A stretch of 64,000 bases of DNA from the human T2T-CHM13v2.0 reference genome, Homo sapiens, in NCBI RefSeq assembly GCF_009914755.1, contig NC_060931.1. The stretch is one strand, 5' to 3'. Below the pieces are notes generated by a model that did no database searches, was not told the origin of the DNA, and saw nothing but the letters and a program-made list of their open reading frames with translations. Made by a program: the position numbers and the translations under genes. Shown piece after piece: positions 43,329 to 54,000 of this stretch. Each line of letters starts with the position of its first letter. Within the stretch, counting starts at the first letter, position 1.

Positions 43329-46300
43329 ATCCTGACTCTTAAATGTGGAGCCAGGTCATATGCAAAATGGTGACTCCCATTCCTGGAACTTTCCACCAGT
43401 GTTATTGTGACATATACCTTTGCCTAGCTCCTGAGTGATTTAATAATCCTGCCTAAGTGTAGCCCACAAATGAGATTTGGAAAATTACCTCAGCTGAGCA
43501 TCTTGGTGATTTGACTCTCCTGTGTTAACAATATCCTCAGGAAGAATTGTAACATGTCTCTGGACTTAACCATCTAGGTTACCTGACTCTCCTCTCCTGC
43601 CTGGACCCTGCTTGCACTAGGGATTGTAGCATTTCTAAGCACTGCGTCCAAATAATATGATTCTCTTGCCTGGTCCTTTCAACAGGAGACATTGTGACAT
43701 ATCTCTGGGCCTATCATTTAGGTGATATGAGTCTCCTTTCTGGACACTGCCCACAAGGGGCATTGTGCCATACATCTGGAGGTAACCCCCAAGTTATGCA
43801 ACTTTTCTGCCAGGAACAGGCCTATATGGAGAATATTGGAAAATTTCAGGCTCAGCATTTATGTTATTTAGCTGTCGTGCCTGTTTCATTACTGTAGAGT
43901 AAATTGTGACATACACCTAGGCACAGTTCACAGGCATGATAATGACTCTCATATGTGGATCCCACAAATAGGATTAATTTTGACTCTCATAACTTTCTTT
44001 AGAAACACAAGTGATTAAATCTCTTTCTGTTAAAAAAAAAAAAAGGAAAAGAACAAAGAAGATTATAACAGCCTCAGATATTTTATAAAGCCCTTGGCTT
44101 GTACAGAGCGTGTCATAACAACCCAGCAGAAAGGTGAAATAGTGAGTCTCTTTTTTTTTTTTTTTGAGACGGAGTATTGCTCTGTTGCCCAGGCTGGAGT
44201 GCAGTGGCGCGACCTCGGCTCACTGCAAGTTCTGCCTCCTGGGTTCACGCCATTCTCCTGCCTCAGCCTCCCAAGTAGCTGGGACTACAGGTGCTCACCA
44301 CCATGCCCGGCTAATTTTTTGTATTTTTTAGTAGAGATGGGGTTTCAGCGTGTTAGCCAGGATGGTCTCAATCTCCTGACCTCGTGATCCGCCCGCCTCG
44401 GCCTCCTGTAGTGCTGGGATTATAGGCATGAGCCACCACACCCGGCCAATTGTGAGTCTCATATGCACACCCAGCTGACAGTAAGGACTGTCACCGTCTC
44501 ACATATATGAAGCCAACTGTCAGTCATGAAAACAGGACATGTGGTATTGTAAATCTTATCCTGGAAATGTTCTGCCATTGTGATTGTCGTATAAATCTTT
44601 GCCGAGCACTTGTGTGATTTGACTCTCCAGACTGGGTCCAGCCCACATATGTTATTGTGATCTCTACCTGGGCCAACCTCTAGGTGATGTGACTCTCTTG
44701 CCTGGGCCCTGCTTTCAGTAAGAATTGTGACATATCACTAGATCCAGCACCCAGGTCATGTTACATTTTCTCCTGAGCCATGCCCACAGAAATCATTGTG
44801 ACATATCACTGTGTCAACCACTTAGGTGATGTAATTCTCCTCATTAGAATGGGCCCTGCACCCAGTGGGGGATAGTAACATATGGCTGGGTCAGGCGCAC
44901 AGGTACACTTTTGCTAGGGTCATGTCCTAAAGAGGGCATTGTGACAAATCTCTGAACCTATCACCTAGGTGATGTTGCTCTCCTGCTTGGGTCCTGCTTA
45001 CCTGGATAGTGACATATTGCTAGGCCAGGCACACAGATGTTGGTACTCTTTTGCCAGGGCCATGCCTCAAGGAGGACATTGTGACATATCTCTGGGCCTG
45101 TCACCTAGGTGATGTGACTCCCTGCTCAAGCCCTGCCCACTTGGAGCATTGTGACATAAGGGTAGAACCTGCACCTTTTTGTTATAATTCTCTTGCCTGG
45201 GGCCTGTCCTAAGGGAGCCTTGTGACACATCTCAGGACCCAGCATCAAGATGATGTGGCTCTTCTGCTTGCTTTCACCTCTCATGTTAGATTGTGTTATA
45301 TACCTAGGGAAGCACCTAGGCGATATGACTCTTCTCTTCTGCCCGAGCCCTGCCTAGTTGGGACATTGGGCCATATATCTGAGCCCGTGTCCTAAGTGAC
45401 GTGACTCTTTTCTTCTGCCTGAGCCTTTACAATGGGGTGATATGACATATTGCTAAGCCCAATACTTAGGTAATATGACTCTTCTTTTTGTCTCAAACCA
45501 TGCCCGTGAAAAGGAATTTTGATGTATTGCAGGGCCCAGCACCCAGATGCTGTTCCTCTTCTGCCTGGGTCCTGCATAAGAGAGAATTATAGCATATTGC
45601 TGGGCCCCCACCTGATGATATAACTCTCCTGCCTGTGCCAGAGAAGCAGAAGGTGTTTTTACATATCTTGGCCTCATTCTGTAGGTGTTTTTGCTCTCAT
45701 CATTTGTCTGGGTTTTTTTCCACATTTGGGATTGTGTCATATTGCTGGGTCCAGCACCCAGTTAATGTAACCCTCATTTTTAGACCCTGCTTAGAGAGGG
45801 CATTGTGACATATTGCTTGCCACAGCACCTAAGTTGTGCTACCCTCCTGCCACTTTTTTTTTTCTACAAATGGGATTTTGAAATTTACATTGCTTCAGTT
45901 CACAGGCATGATGATCAAAGTTAAATTGGAATTCCACCAAGAGTAGATATTTTGCCTCTCATCGCTATGCTTAGGGCAATAGGTAAGGTTATGAGTTGCA
46001 TATTGTAGAAAGCTCACAGAAGGTTACAACACTAACTCATATTCTGAAAACTCCTTGGGTGGTACACAGAGTTTCCTAAGAGGGTCCAGCAAAAGGTTAA
46101 GGTCATGACTTTTGATTACACATGCAGGTGAGAGCAAAAGTCACCATCCCACTTTTACAAAGCCCACTGTTGAAGTCCTGAATCTAACAAGTAAATAAAG
46201 TACAAAGATAAAATTGTGACTTTCATATGTGGATCTTACTACAGGTGAGATGGTGACTTATTTCTGGACCCAGATCACAGGCATGATAATGGGTCTCCTG

Positions 46301-51400: not shown

Positions 51401-54000
51401 ATATTTCTAGGCCAGGCACACAGGTGATGGTACTCTTTTACCAGGGCTATGCTTCATGGAGGACACTGTGACATATCTCTGGGCCTATCACCTAGGTGAA
51501 GTGATTCCCTCCTTGGACCCTACCCACATGGAGCATTGTAGCATGAGCAGAGAACCTGTACCCAGGTGATGTAACTCTCTTGGCTGGGTGCTGTCCTAAG
51601 AGAGCCTTGTGACCTGTCTCAGGACCCAGCACCCAAATGATGTGGCTCTTCTGCCTGGTCTCTGCCCACATGTTACATTGTGACATATTCCTAGGGAAGC
51701 ACCTATGTGATATAACTCTCCTTGTCTGCCTGAGTCCTGCCTGCTGGGGACATTGGGACATACCTCTGACCCCATGACCTAGATGATGTGACCCTCTTTT
51801 TCTGCCTCAGCCTTCACAATAGGAGGATTTTGACACAATGCTGAGCCCAGCACTCAGAATATGTTACTCTCCTCTTTTTGCTGAACCATGCCCACAAAAA
51901 AGGAATTTGGACCTATTGCAGGGCCCAGCATCGAGATGATGTTACTCTTCTGCCTGGGTTCTGCAAAAGAGGAAATTGTGGCATATTGCATATTTCTTGG
52001 CCCAGCATTCTTATGATGTGACTCTCCTGCCTGTGCTGGAGCCACCGAATGTATTTTGACATATCTTGGACCCATTATGTAGGTGTTTTGGCTCTTATAA
52101 CTTGGCTGGGTTTTTCCACGTGAGATGGTGTCATATTGCTGGGTCCAGCACCCAGTTATTGTGGCCCAATTTCCTATACCCTGCCTAGAGAAAGCATTGT
52201 GTCATGTTGCTTGGCCCAGCACCTAAGTGATGTTACCCTCCTGCCTAGTTTTTGCCCACAAATGGGATTATGGCATATACCTTACTTCAGTTCACAGGCA
52301 TGATGATTAAACTTATATTGGGATTCAGCAAATGGGAGATATTTTGCCTCTCATCATTACGCTTAGGGCAATAGGTAAGGTCCTGAGTTGCATATTTGTA
52401 CCAAGGTCACAGAAGCTTACAATACTAACTTATATTGTATAAAGTCTTTGGTGGTAGAGAGTTTCTTAACAGGGTCCAGCAAAAAGTTCAGATTGGGACT
52501 GTCAATTACACACCCAGTTGAAATTAAAAGTTGTCACCATCCCACGTTTACAGTGCCCACTCTTGAGGTCCTGAGTCTAACAAGGGAATACAGCACAAAG
52601 TTGGAATTGTGACTCTTATACGTGGATCTGGCCACAGGTGGGATGGTGACGCATTTCTGGACCCGGCCCACAGGCATAATAATAGGTCTTCTCCCTTAAC
52701 CCTGCCTAAAGGAGAGATGTTGACTATCAAACCTGGGTTTAGGGCAATATGTAAGATTGTGAGTCCATACGAGCATGTGGGCCTCAGAGAGGTCTGCAAC
52801 TCTCATGCAGGTTTTATAAAGCCCTCAGATGTCATAGAGAGGGTTATACGTTGGCCCAGCACACATGTGAGATTGTGACTCTAATATACACACTCAGCTA
52901 AAAGTTAAAGGTGTCACCCTCAAAGATGATGAGATTGTGTCATATCACTGGGCCTAGTACCCAGGTGTTGAGACTTTATTCCTTAAATTCCTTTCCATGG
53001 GTGCATTGTTACATATCACTGCGTCAGAATCATATGAATGTGACTCTTCTGCCTGGGCCCTGTCAACAGGGGATATTATCACATATCTCTGGGCCTATGA
53101 GCTAGATGATGTGTCTCTCCAGCTTGTGCCCTGGGTTGTATGTATCTCCTTTCTATTCTGGACTCTGCCAAGAGAGGGGATTATTACATATTTATGAGCC
53201 CAGCAACTAGGTAGTGTGACTCTTCTCTTTTTCTTAAACCCTTTCTATAATAGGATTGGTGACATACTACTTGAGACTTTACCCAGGTGATGTGACTCTT
53301 CTGCCTTGTCCCTGCCCACAGGAGAAATTGTGCCATATACCTGGGTTCAGCTCACATGCACAATAATAACTCTTATACCTGGACCCAGCCAGTAGAGATA
53401 TTTTGACTCTCATAGCCAATCTTACAGCCAAGGGTAAAATCCTGGTTCTTCCACTTGTATAAAGTTCACAGAGGATTATGACACAGGCATATTATATAAA
53501 GCCTGAGTGGTACAAAGAGTGTCATAACAGGGACCAGCAACCAGGTGAGATTGTGACTCTCGGATGCACATCCAGCTGACACGGTTGTCATTCTCACACA
53601 TAAACAGAGCCTATGTGTGAGGTACTAAATCTCACACACCAAAAGCAGTTGAAGGTTGAAATTGTTACTCTCATACATGGATCTGATCCACAGTAGGTTT
53701 CGTGACGTTTGAACTATGATTCAGCACACCTGTGAGGCTGTGACTCTTCTACTGGAACACAATCTTCAACTAGGATTGAGGCTCTTACACATGGATCTTT
53801 CCCATTGTTGAAACTGTGACTCCTGTACTTCTACCAAACTCACAGGAGGTGTTGACTCTCATACCCGAAGCCAAGACCTGTGTGGGAGTGTGAAACTTAT
53901 TTCTTAACCTTTCCAAGTGTGTGACTGGGACATATAACCTTGCCCAGCACCTGAGTGATTTGACTCTCCTTCCTAAACCCAGACCACAGGTGAAATTGTG
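48477..54000 (+). other. Disabled BPY2/VCY2-homologous proto-exon set, HOR copy B (segments 48477, 50619, 53251, ~53977)
   Basis: 48477: IRTLVPGARTCAG..SHP*TFPQ|gt. 50619: ag|ALPRESIVTYSLAKHLSDVNILPRFF. 53253: GLVTYYLRLYPGDVTLL. Compared with the recalled BPY2 sequence. Confidence 0.7.

What the first reader, a model, noticed from the sequence alone, without database searches (positions are those of the whole stretch)
43329..54000. Beta-satellite higher-order unit contains a complete, splice-phase-correct set of proto-exons for the Y-linked orphan gene BPY2/VCY2
Recalled, not searched: BPY2 = MMTLVPRARTRAGQDHYSHPCPRFSQ VLLTEGIMTYCLTKNLSDVNILHRLLKNGNVRNTLLQSK VGLLTYYVKLYPGEVTLLTRPSIQMRLCCITGSVS RPRSQK (106 aa). 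Seen on the + strand of the satellite: (1) 48477 IRTLVPGARTCAG (9/13 identical), then SHP*TFPQ ending cag|GT in phase 0. (2) 50619, directly after ttcctAG in phase 0, ALPRESIVTYSLAKHLSDVNILPRFF (15/26); copy A at 45784 gives LLREGIVTYCL (9/11) and, after a frameshift, NGILKFTLLQF. (3) 46965-47070, after catacAG in phase 1, (V)GMMTCYLRLYPTDMTLLTGSCL*RRLYCIPGSAP(R) (18/36, ungapped); copy B at 53253 gives GLVTYYLRLYPGDVTLL. (4) 47761, after tttctAG in phase 2, (R)PRAQ. The four segments cover essentially the whole protein, in order, within one HOR period, and recur in successive HOR copies. Disablers here: ATA AGG instead of ATG ATG, TGA/TAA stops, frameshifts, and GC or lost donors. Inference: the BPY2 coding sequence arose by exonising a beta-satellite HOR of this family, and this array preserves the non-coding relative. 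An autosome-derived de novo origin of VCY2 has been proposed before. I do not know whether the satellite nature of all coding exons has been described.
Basis: partly seen in the sequence, partly recalled or inferred. Interest (0 to 1): 0.88.

Follow-up and report, generated by a model that had tools for sequence, protein, structure and literature searches.

The report
Satellite-built non-coding cousin of BPY2
An old, decayed beta-satellite-like repeat array on chromosome 7 is the already published non-coding cousin of the Y-linked testis gene BPY2, and comparing the two shows that most of the gene's coding sequence and all of its splice sites lie in satellite repeat units.

Summary
I rebuilt the BPY2 coding sequence from chrY of this assembly: 4 coding exons, 321 nt, 106 aa.

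Window 42065-58232 is 72-84% identical to the whole 22-kb BPY2 locus. That homology is already in print: Cao et al. 2015 (PMC4370482) call this locus "Chr-7-BEYLA", next to ZNF736 and TRIM60P, and use it to argue that VCY2/BPY2 arose de novo. They found only exons 1-2 here.

In 10 searches I found no paper on the satellite nature:
- Both loci are head-to-tail ~71-nt monomers. Their consensus matches the canonical 68-nt beta-satellite consensus at 54 of 68 aligned positions.
- Exons 2, 3 and 4 match the monomer significantly. Exon 1 does so only indirectly.
- The six BPY2 splice junctions use three monomer positions.
- Among neighbouring lncRNA junctions that lie in monomer context, 12 of 14 use the same positions.

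Caveats:
- There is no regular HOR.
- The Sau3A site is lost.
- chr8 copies are as close or closer.

The parts
42065..58232 (+). Decayed beta-satellite-related array of head-to-tail ~71-nt monomers; the whole stretch is homologous to the BPY2 locus
   Evidence: The range comes from blastn against the BPY2 locus. Autocorrelation is highest at lag 71 (0.302 against a median of 0.252) and the flanks show no such peak. 157 of the 159 plus-strand family-profile hits lie here. The canonical chr1 profile gives 60 hits here, all on the + strand, and 0 in the flanks.
45993..51189 (+). Best colinear block with BPY2 (locus 5620-10780, 80.5% over 5,298 columns). It holds proto-exons 1 and 2 and corresponds to the published 5-kb Chr-7-BEYLA.
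   Evidence: Cao et al. 2015 passages.
48477..48546 (+). Proto-exon 1, colinear with BPY2 exon 1. ATAAGG stands in place of ATGATG, there is an in-frame TGA, it is 8 nt shorter, and the CAG|GT donor is kept.
50619..50740 (+). Proto-exon 2, colinear with BPY2 exon 2. The acceptor AG is kept, it is 4 nt longer (frameshift), it has a late stop, and the donor is GC.
   Evidence: tblastn E=7e-5.
53251..53358 (+). Proto-exon 3 of the same period. It is open in the BPY2 phase and 2 nt longer. The acceptor position reads AA and the donor position reads CA.
   Evidence: tblastn 58.8% over 34 aa, E=4.7e-9. Its orthology to the coding exon is uncertain.
53977..53995 (+). Proto-exon 4 of the same period. 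The acceptor position reads AA and there is no stop codon at the homologous place.
46965..47070 (+). It has the same length as exon 3, acceptor AG, donor AT and one in-frame TAA. It is the orthologue of non-coding BPY2 locus 6527-6704.
47761..47779 (+). The acceptor AG is kept. It is the orthologue of BPY2 locus 7309-7438.
43329..43398 (+). Exon-1-like copy of the preceding period, with no ATG and an in-frame stop.
45784..45905 (+). Acceptor AG, donor GC, 4 nt longer.
52178..52297 (+). Extra exon-2-like copy. The acceptor position reads AT and the donor is GC.
   Evidence: tblastn.
57904..58024 (+). Exon-2-like copy of the third, truncated period.
55874..55966 (+). Exon-1-like copy of the third period.
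   Evidence: 77% to 48442-53.
48333..48435 (+). Annotated first exon of lncRNA LOC105375324. Its donor lies at monomer position 64|65, the position of the BPY2 exon 1 donor.
   Evidence: RefSeq rows.
55708..57437 (+). Alternative first exon of LOC105375324. Its donor lies at monomer position 29|30, the position of the BPY2 exon 2 and exon 3 donors.

Best explanation
Window 42065-58232 is a relic of a beta-satellite-related tandem array. Its monomers are about 71 nt long and all point the same way. It lies just downstream of ZNF736 and TRIM60P18.

The block ZNF736 / TRIM60 pseudogene / array was copied to 8q11 and to the Y chromosome. This step is inferred from synteny and from Cao et al. 2015. 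On the Y, one higher-order period of the array became the four coding exons of BPY2.

The chr7 array does not encode the protein. No exon-1-like copy has an ATG. Frames are broken by indels and stops, and several splice dinucleotides are missing. It is transcribed as the lncRNA LOC105375324.

How the gene was built is partly shown and partly inferred. On this strand the satellite monomer carries three latent splice signals:
- AG|GTGATG at position 29|30
- a pyrimidine run followed by (T)AG|G at 51|52
- ACAG|G at 64|65

All six BPY2 junctions use these three places, and so do most junctions of the neighbouring lncRNAs that lie in monomer context. The bulk of the protein is two monomer pairs read in the same frame, which gives an internal repeat between exons 2 and 3.

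[quoted passage not shown] All of these are Y-specific states compared with the chr7 and chr8 copies.
For: Homology: there are 196 HSPs between the window and the BPY2 locus, the best 5,298 columns at 80.5%. Genome-wide matches to the BPY2 coding region fall only on chr7, chr8 and chrY (62 and 75 matches listed). The synteny ZNF736 / TRIM60P / array holds on all three chromosomes.

Satellite nature:
- Lag 71 tops the autocorrelation in both loci.
- The chr1:128.14 Mb array has period 68 and 102 copies.
- A profile built from 52 chr1 monomers gives 60 hits in the window array and 53 in the BPY2 locus, all on the + strand. It gives 0 hits in 47.7 kb of flank and 0 in 2 shuffles.
- The two consensus sequences share 54 of 68 aligned positions.
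- tblastn of BPY2 against 10 kb of the chr1 array gives 90 HSPs at E<=10, against 14 in a 16-kb shuffle. BPY2 residues 32-48 and 67-83 both align to the same canonical monomer frame.

Exons against the monomer: 0 of 1000 shuffles reach the score of exon 2 or exon 3 with either consensus. For exon 4 with 25-nt flanks the figure is 0 of 1000 with the family consensus and 38 of 1000 with the canonical one.

Junctions:
- 5 of the 6 BPY2 junction contexts are monomer-like (at most 1 of 500 shuffles). The six junctions map to positions 29, 51 and 64, two each.
- The window lncRNA donors lie at positions 64 and 29.
- Of 16 further lncRNA junctions, 12 lie in monomer context (0 of 300 shuffles). Ten of those 12 lie within one base of the same three positions, including 5 of the 6 LOC105375291 donors at position 29.
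- AGGT occupies positions 28-31 in 42 of 102 window monomers and in 37 of 113 BPY2-locus monomers.

Internal repeat: exon 2 aligns to exon 3 over about 100 nt, no shuffle of 2000 reaches the score, and the codon phase is the same.

Ancestral non-coding state: none of the 4 autosomal colinear copies has ATGATG, and all 5 autosomal exon-2 copies have a GC donor. Primate outgroups are covered in Cao et al. 2015.
Against: - BPY2 exon 1 alone is not significantly monomer-like. 117-159 of 1000 shuffles and 283-542 of 2000 reach its score.
- The ATG context is not significant either (51 of 500).
- Support for exon 1 is indirect. The chr7 proto-exon 1 scores 0 of 2000 and a consensus of 11 copies scores 0 of 1000. 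The part of that consensus without the conserved core reaches only 74 of 1000.
- The exon 2 donor context is not significant (225 of 500).
- The monomer is 71 nt, not 68. GATC occurs 1.6-2.0 times per kb, against 14.5 per kb in the chr1 array.
- The canonical profile covers only 19% of the window array and 12% of the BPY2 locus at E<=0.01. The family profile covers about 59% at E<=10, with 20 minus-strand hits against 159 plus-strand hits as a measure of noise.
- All my shuffles preserve mononucleotide content only, not dinucleotides.
- The lncRNA models are Gnomon predictions.
- In the tree for exons 3-4, the chr7 copy at 53285-54541 groups with the other paralogue type (support 1.0). Strict orthologues of coding exons 3-4 may therefore be missing on chr7.
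- No RepeatMasker or Dfam annotation and no other primate genome was available.
Confidence: 0.85

Rival explanations
1. The resemblance is produced by the periodicity alone. Any translated beta-satellite monomer looks a little like BPY2, so the chr7 'proto-exons' would have no specific kinship with the gene.
For: Canonical chr1 satellite gives 90 weak tblastn HSPs to BPY2. The motif recurs in many window monomers, with 81 HSPs at E<=10.
Against: A 5.3-kb colinear DNA alignment at 80.5% spans both exons and the intron between them. The flanking synteny is shared. In the tree for the exon 1-2 block, paralogous periods split from the orthologous group with support 1.0.
Confidence: 0.02
2. The chr7 array is a decayed pseudogene of an ancestral autosomal protein-coding BPY2, not a never-coding relative.
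For: Proto-exon 3 at 53251 is open across the whole exon. Some splice sites are kept.
Against: - All 4 colinear autosomal copies lack the start codon and share the same length differences in exon 1.
- The canonical monomer has stops in every frame.
- Cao et al. 2015 report the same disablers in chimpanzee, macaque and marmoset autosomes (I read Results parts 1, 2 and 4 and passages, not part 3).
Confidence: 0.05
3. The 71-nt repeat is a distinct tandem family that only shares a few boxes with beta satellite, so the name 'beta-satellite' is wrong.
For: The period is 71, not 68. The Sau3A site is lost. The family occurs only on chr7, chr8 and chrY among the scored matches.
Against: The consensus sequences match at 54 of 68 aligned positions, colinear over the full monomer. 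Hits of the canonical profile are strand-specific and confined to the array. A pattern taken from the family consensus finds 1,989 genomic sites against 0 for the control, and the 100 sites listed all lie in chr1:128.1-128.6 Mb, where TRF on a 10-kb sample shows a 68-nt period.
Confidence: 0.08
4. The origin is as described, but the BPY2 ORF is not a selected protein. It would be a chance open frame in a spliced satellite transcript.
For: A 2026 preprint reports BPY2 evolution consistent with neutrality and a low-confidence predicted structure (10.1101/2024.04.02.587783; passages only). In my tree the BPY2 branch is 0.134, against 0.048-0.081 for the autosomal copies.
Against: Cao et al. cite Western blot and immunostaining of testis and two binding partners (the primary papers were not seen). 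The three human copies are 100% identical over the coding region.
Confidence: 0.25

Closest known systems
Chr-7-BEYLA / BEYLA (LINC00293, 8q11) as non-coding homologues of VCY2 (Cao et al. 2015, PLoS One, PMC4370482)
   Same: It is the same locus: a VCY2-like stretch in the chr7 ZNF cluster next to ZNF736 and a TRIM60 pseudogene. It lacks the start codon, has premature stops, and has a testis EST. The conclusion is also the same: a de novo origin from autosomal non-coding DNA.
   Different: That paper reports a 5-kb stretch with only exons 1 and 2 on chr7. Here exon-3-like and exon-4-like copies are mapped as well, in 2-3 periods. The words satellite, tandem and repetitive do not occur in its main text. 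It treats the internal similarity as a duplicated 8.5-kb segment.
Canonical beta satellite (the 68-bp Sau3A family; the name and definition are recalled, and the comparator array chr1:128.14 Mb was measured here)
   Same: Head-to-tail monomers. The consensus sequences match at 54 of 68 aligned positions, including the two conserved boxes and the three AG/GT positions.
   Different: The monomer is 71 nt. The Sau3A site is lost. The copies are 66-84% alike instead of a homogeneous array. The family is small and restricted to chr7, chr8 and chrY among the scored hits. It is interrupted by Alu-sized insertions.
Exonisation of Alu elements (recalled, not searched)
   Same: A repeat unit that carries latent splice sites is recruited as an exon. 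Here the same three monomer positions are used again and again.
   Different: The substrate is a tandem satellite, not an interspersed retroelement. The whole CDS comes from the repeat, rather than one cassette exon added to an existing gene.
Genes embedded in macrosatellites, such as DUX4 in D4Z4 and TSPY in its array (recalled)
   Same: A coding sequence inside tandemly repeated DNA.
   Different: In those cases a pre-existing gene was amplified as part of a kb-scale unit. Here the codons themselves derive from ~70-nt satellite monomers.

Membership tests
Beta satellite (Sau3A 68-bp family) | Tandem head-to-tail monomers of about 68 bp | tested here: inconclusive
   The arrangement is tandem and in one orientation. 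The modal period is 71 nt, with 76 and 69-70 also seen. The chr1 comparator has period 68.
Beta satellite (Sau3A 68-bp family) | Sequence similarity to the canonical monomer | tested here: met
   The chr1-only profile gives 60 and 53 hits, all on the + strand, and 0 in flanks and shuffles. The consensus sequences match at 54 of 68 aligned positions.
Beta satellite (Sau3A 68-bp family) | One Sau3A (GATC) site per monomer | tested here: not met
   GATC occurs 1.6 times per kb in the window array and 2.0 per kb in the BPY2 locus, against 14.5 per kb in the chr1 array.
Beta satellite (Sau3A 68-bp family) | RepeatMasker/Dfam call BSR/Beta over the array and over the BPY2 exons | not testable with these tools
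   No repeat library was available. The assembly's soft-masking marks only 5 short stretches within 42-58 kb and gives no family names.
Higher-order repeat (HOR) array | Regular multi-monomer period with highly similar copies | tested here: not met
   There are 13 off-diagonal blocks of at least 600 nt, with offsets from 1,549 to 12,580 nt and 66-83.5% identity. The 1-2-3-4 order recurs with periods of 5,148 and about 7,400 nt.
Non-coding homologue of a de novo gene (Chr-7-BEYLA of Cao et al. 2015) | Colinear DNA homology to the coding region, with conserved flanking genes | tested here: met
Non-coding homologue of a de novo gene (Chr-7-BEYLA of Cao et al. 2015) | Disablers shared by independent non-coding copies, implying a non-coding ancestor | tested here: met
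   Within human only: the chr7 copy and three chr8 copies all lack ATGATG and share the exon 1 length differences and the GC donor of exon 2. Outgroup species are covered only through the paper.
Non-coding homologue of a de novo gene (Chr-7-BEYLA of Cao et al. 2015) | Expression and translation of the derived gene | not testable with these tools
   Reads and proteomics are off. The only evidence is what is cited in Cao et al..

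The most novel reading that the evidence does not exclude
BPY2 would be the first documented human protein-coding gene in which most of the coding sequence and all six splice junctions derive from classical satellite monomers. The start-codon half of exon 1 remains unproven. On one strand the beta-satellite monomer would be a ready-made exon kit: a 5' splice site at position 29|30, two 3' splice sites at 51|52 and 64|65, and an ATG-bearing box. Any transcribed array in this orientation would then produce spliced RNAs, and only a handful of point changes and small indels would separate it from an ORF. 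The chr7 and chr8 arrays and their lncRNAs would be living intermediates of that path.
Probability: 0.45. Interest if true: 0.7.

Novelty: new variant of a known kind. Interest (0 to 1): 0.55.

Why it matters
The locus-level claim, that chr7 holds a non-coding relative of BPY2 and that the gene arose de novo from autosome-derived DNA, is already published and adds nothing.

What may be new is the substrate. De novo genes are usually traced to unique intergenic DNA or to transposable elements. Here the raw material is a classical satellite whose monomer supplies the splice signals. Three monomer positions serve 6 of 6 BPY2 junctions and 12 of the 14 lncRNA junctions that lie in monomer context. 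The monomer also supplies the repeated core of the protein.

This gives a concrete, testable rule for when satellite transcripts become spliced. It explains the internal repeat in BPY2. It also fits reports that BPY2 evolves neutrally with a poorly predicted fold.

The point also bears on annotation. ORFs and exons inside beta-satellite-like arrays on chr7, chr8 and chrY (TTTY4, LINC00293, LOC105375324, LOC105375291) may all follow the same grammar.

Tried and rejected
- Tandem Repeats Finder on 40-64 kb found only short 71-83-nt arrays at 54.8-57.8 kb. The copies are too diverged for it, so I used autocorrelation and profiles instead.
- I could not fetch the public BPY2 protein with the word search. 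The longest stop-free stretch around an exon is 51 aa, which is too short to reach a 106-aa target under the length rule. I made no protein-database search.
- I considered that chr7 might be the single progenitor and rejected it. chr8 copies are equally or more similar, and the chr7/chr8/Y branching is unresolved (supports 0.32-0.81).
- I considered a regular HOR and rejected it.
- I tested BPY2 exon 1 directly against both monomer consensus sequences. It was not significant. Searching other array positions mostly returned unmasked higher-order paralogues, so that result is not independent evidence.
Only the best candidates of a genome search are scored, and the pattern search listed only chr1 places.
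- Dating was not attempted beyond branch lengths, because no other primate genome was available.
BPY2 plus 'beta satellite' returned 0 papers. VCY2 plus satellite returned 3 papers; for one of them the passages hold nothing on satellite origin, and the other two I saw only as listing rows. BPY2 plus satellite returned 31 papers, 26 of them listed. For five of these I read the BPY2 passages and found nothing on a satellite origin. The rest I saw only as listing rows.
- Bhowmick et al. 2007 (PMC1832091) is not held. Stuppia et al. 2005, Skaletsky et al. 2003 and Kuroda-Kawaguchi et al. 2001 were not seen. Subscription papers, supplements (closed) and browser repeat tracks may already show the overlap.

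Full report
**Reference for the comparison.** RefSeq places BPY2 at chrY:23819939-23841142 (+) in this assembly, with BPY2B, BPY2C and the pseudogene BPY2DP elsewhere on the Y. I fetched the locus in four pieces and read the exons from it. The coordinates below count position 1 as chrY 23819939.

| Exon | Locus coordinates |
|---|---|
| 1 | 8082-8159 |
| 2 | 10219-10336 |
| 3 | 13191-13296 |
| 4 | 13989-14007 |

These four exons join to a 321-nt ORF of 106 aa, from ATG to TAA, with AG acceptors and GT donors at all three introns. I could not cross-check against a protein database, because the longest stop-free stretch around an exon is 51 aa. Cao et al. 2015 describe the same layout: 106 aa, four coding exons, an ATG in exon 1 and a TAA in exon 4.

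**The observation.** My hand recount of 9/13, 15/26, 9/11 and 18/36 agrees. In nucleotide alignments the BPY2 exon ends fall on the named sites:
- ATAAGG stands opposite ATGATG at 48477, with the CAG|GT donor kept.
- At 50619 the acceptor AG is kept, the donor is GC, and there are 4 extra bases.
- At 46965 the acceptor is AG and the donor AT, with one in-frame TAA.
- At 47761 the acceptor is AG.

Chance is excluded. There are 196 blastn HSPs between the window and the 22,062-nt locus, the best 5,298 columns at 80.5%. tblastn gives 4 HSPs at E<=1e-3, against 0 in the reversed window and 0 in a shuffled array.

**What is already known.** Cao et al. 2015 (PMC4370482) describe exactly this locus. 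I read the abstract, Results parts 1, 2 and 4, and passages. They report a VCY2-like stretch of about 5 kb in the chr7 ZNF cluster, with ZNF736 and a TRIM60 pseudogene as shared neighbours. They name it Chr-7-BEYLA and find only exons 1 and 2, without a start codon and with a premature stop, plus one testis EST. They conclude that VCY2 arose de novo from autosome-derived non-coding DNA carried to the Y in the green amplicon. My data agree:
- The gene order ZNF736, TRIM60P, array is present on chr7, chr8 and chrY.
- Matches to the BPY2 coding region occur only on those three chromosomes.
- The best colinear block (window 45993-51189) holds exons 1 and 2.

**Satellite nature.**
- Window 42000-58300 and the BPY2 locus both have their strongest autocorrelation at lag 71 (0.302 and 0.300 against medians of 0.252 and 0.256). 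Secondary peaks lie at 76, 36/38 and 147. The flanks lack this signal.
- A monomer profile built from 57 units tiles both loci. It gives 159 plus-strand and 20 minus-strand hits in the window, and 157 of the 159 lie within 42-58 kb. In the BPY2 locus it gives 227 plus-strand and 25 minus-strand hits.
- For an independent comparator I searched the genome with a two-box pattern. It found 1,989 sites against 0 for the control, and the 100 listed sites are all in chr1:128.1-128.6 Mb.
- I fetched 10 kb there. TRF gives period 68, 102 copies, and a GATC in the consensus. This matches the classical Sau3A beta satellite as I recall its definition.
- A profile built only from 52 of these chr1 monomers hits the window array 60 times and the BPY2 locus 53 times, always on the + strand. 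It gives no hit in 47.7 kb of window flank or in two shuffles.
- The family and canonical consensus sequences agree at 54 of 68 aligned positions.
- The family has diverged. The monomer is 71 nt, GATC is lost (1.6-2.0 per kb against 14.5 per kb), and the canonical profile covers only 12-19% of the sequence at E<=0.01.

**Exons and monomers.** The table gives how many shuffles reached the observed alignment score.

| Sequence tested | Family consensus (71 nt) | Canonical consensus (68 nt) |
|---|---|---|
| BPY2 exon 2 | 0 of 1000 | 0 of 1000 |
| BPY2 exon 3 | 0 of 1000 | 0 of 1000 |
| BPY2 exon 4 with 25-nt flanks | 0 of 1000 | 38 of 1000 |
| BPY2 exon 1 | 117 of 1000 | 149 of 1000 |
| chr7 proto-exon 1 | 0 of 2000 | 565 of 2000 |
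| Consensus of 11 exon-1-like copies | 0 of 1000 | 54 of 1000 |
| The same consensus without the conserved core | 74 of 1000 | 156 of 1000 |

Exon 1 therefore fails on its own, and a retest with a different scoring scheme also failed (283 and 542 of 2000). In every copy the exon-1 unit lies between two full monomers and ends in a recognisable partial monomer. In the alignment of the 11-copy consensus, the start-codon site falls at about monomer positions 31-37. So exons 2-4 and the 3' part of exon 1 are shown to be monomer-derived, while the ATG-bearing part is only inferred to be.

At protein level, BPY2 residues 32-48 and 67-83 both align to one reading frame of the canonical chr1 monomer. 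Exons 2 and 3 align to each other over about 100 nt in the same codon phase, and 0 of 2000 shuffles reach that score. The canonical consensus has stops in all three frames.

**Splice grammar.** The six BPY2 junctions map to three monomer positions.

| Monomer position | BPY2 junctions | Shuffles reaching the score |
|---|---|---|
| 51\|52 | acceptors of exons 2 and 4 | 0 of 500 for both |
| 64\|65 | donor of exon 1, acceptor of exon 3 | 0 of 500 and 1 of 500 |
| 29\|30 | donors of exons 3 and 2 | 0 of 500 and 225 of 500 (not significant) |

- The canonical consensus already reads TAG|G, ACAG|G and CAG|GTGATG at these places.
- AGGT occupies positions 28-31 in 42 of 102 window monomers and in 37 of 113 BPY2-locus monomers. 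AG occupies 63-64 in 52 and 47 of them, and 50-51 in 9 and 14.
- The annotated lncRNAs follow the same rule. In the window, the donor of LOC105375324 exon 1 (48435|48436) lies at position 64 and the donor of its alternative first exon (57437|57438) lies at position 29. Its two junctions at 62.7-62.9 kb lie outside the array.
- Among 16 further junctions of LOC105375324 and LOC105375291 (loci), 12 lie in monomer context (0 of 300 shuffles).
- Those 12 comprise donors at position 29 (five) and 67 (one), and acceptors at 64 (two), 65, 51, 52 and 15 (one each). The other 4 are not in monomer context.
- These transcript models are Gnomon predictions.

**Higher-order structure and orthology.** The window holds these proto-exon copies.

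| Type | Copies in the window |
|---|---|
| Exon-1-like | 43329, 48477, about 55.9 kb |
| Exon-2-like | 45784, 50619, 52178, 57904 |
| Exon-3-like | 46965, 53251 (plus a weak one at 44579) |
| Exon-4-like | 42335, 47761, 53977, 54641 |

- This is not a regular HOR. Self-alignment gives 13 blocks of at least 600 nt, with offsets from 1.5 to 12.6 kb and 66-83.5% identity.
- In a FastTree of the exon 1-2 block, chr7 47987-51189, three chr8 copies and the BPY2 coding period form one poorly resolved group (supports 0.32-0.81). BPY2 has the longest branch, 0.134 against 0.048-0.081. Paralogous periods split off with support 1.0.
- For the exon 3-4 block, chr7 46877-48319 pairs with the non-coding BPY2 stretch 6500-7925 (support 1.0).
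- In the same tree chr7 53285-54541 joins that paralogue type rather than the coding block (support 1.0). The chr8 copies and BPY2DP stay on the side of the coding block.
A strict chr7 orthologue of coding exons 3-4 is doubtful, which fits Cao et al. finding only exons 1-2 here.
- Per exon, chr8b is closer to BPY2 than chr7 is: 79/87/81/86% against 77/81/73/78%.

**Mechanism.** The following is shown:
- The array, its kinship with beta satellite and its homology to BPY2.
- The monomer positions of the junctions.
- The Y-specific states: ATGATG against ATAAGG, ATAACA, ATAATG and ATAACG; the length differences in exons 1 and 2; GT against GC at the exon 2 donor in all 5 autosomal copies; and TAA in exon 4.

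The following is inferred:
- That these Y-specific states are derived. This rests on agreement among the human autosomal copies and on the primate comparisons in Cao et al.
- That the monomer's latent signals caused the exon structure.
- That the start codon derives from the monomer's ATG-bearing box.

**Novelty and limits.** Ten literature searches found no paper linking BPY2, VCY2 or BEYLA to satellite DNA. In Cao et al. the words satellite, tandem and repetitive occur 0 times. I could not see supplements, most subscription papers, or any repeat annotation. From memory, genome-browser repeat tracks may already display the overlap. I therefore rate the locus-level finding as known and the satellite and splice-grammar reading as a probable new variant of de novo gene birth. 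All shuffles preserved mononucleotide content only. No other primate genome, reads or proteomics were available.

Noticed in passing
window 48333-48435 and 55708-57437; L010, L011: Annotated lncRNAs in this array and in sister arrays (LOC105375324, LOC105375291) splice at the same three monomer positions as BPY2. Five of the six LOC105375291 donors lie at monomer position 29|30.
   Followed up: yes
G000 chr7:56838283-56839181 (-), compared with window 56900-57800: A 93% identical inverted copy of the array lies about 8.7 Mb away on chr7. It sits next to TRIM60P16 and a ZNF736 pseudogene, so the cassette was also duplicated recently within chr7.
   Followed up: partly
BPY2 locus (L001-L004), tree: The BPY2 coding period has about twice the branch length of its chr7 and chr8 counterparts (0.134 against 0.048-0.081). 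The cause is not resolved; Y-linked mutation bias, relaxed constraint or selection are all possible.
   Followed up: no
window 47065-48341 compared with 53281-54548: The two chr7 copies of the exon 3-4 block are 83.5% identical to each other, more than either is to its Y counterpart (76-78%). This suggests gene conversion within the array or a later duplication on chr7.
   Followed up: partly
window 42487-42803, 44142-44453, 54731-55733: These soft-masked stretches interrupt the array. Two are Alu-sized. The third also holds an 83-nt unit repeated twice at 54791-54960. The elements were not identified.
   Followed up: no
window 40585-40767: An (AAG)n microsatellite with about 61 copies lies just upstream of the array.
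   Followed up: no
window 1-40000: Autocorrelation shows peaks at lags 84 and 168, as expected from the zinc-finger repeats of ZNF736.
   Followed up: no
L009 (chrY:7587501-7595000, BPY2DP): BPY2DP keeps the first ATG, but the second ATG reads ATT. It lacks the 5-nt and 3-nt exon 1 segments of BPY2, and its exon 2 alignment stops after 58% of the query. Its exon 4 is 99% identical, including the TAA.
   Followed up: partly
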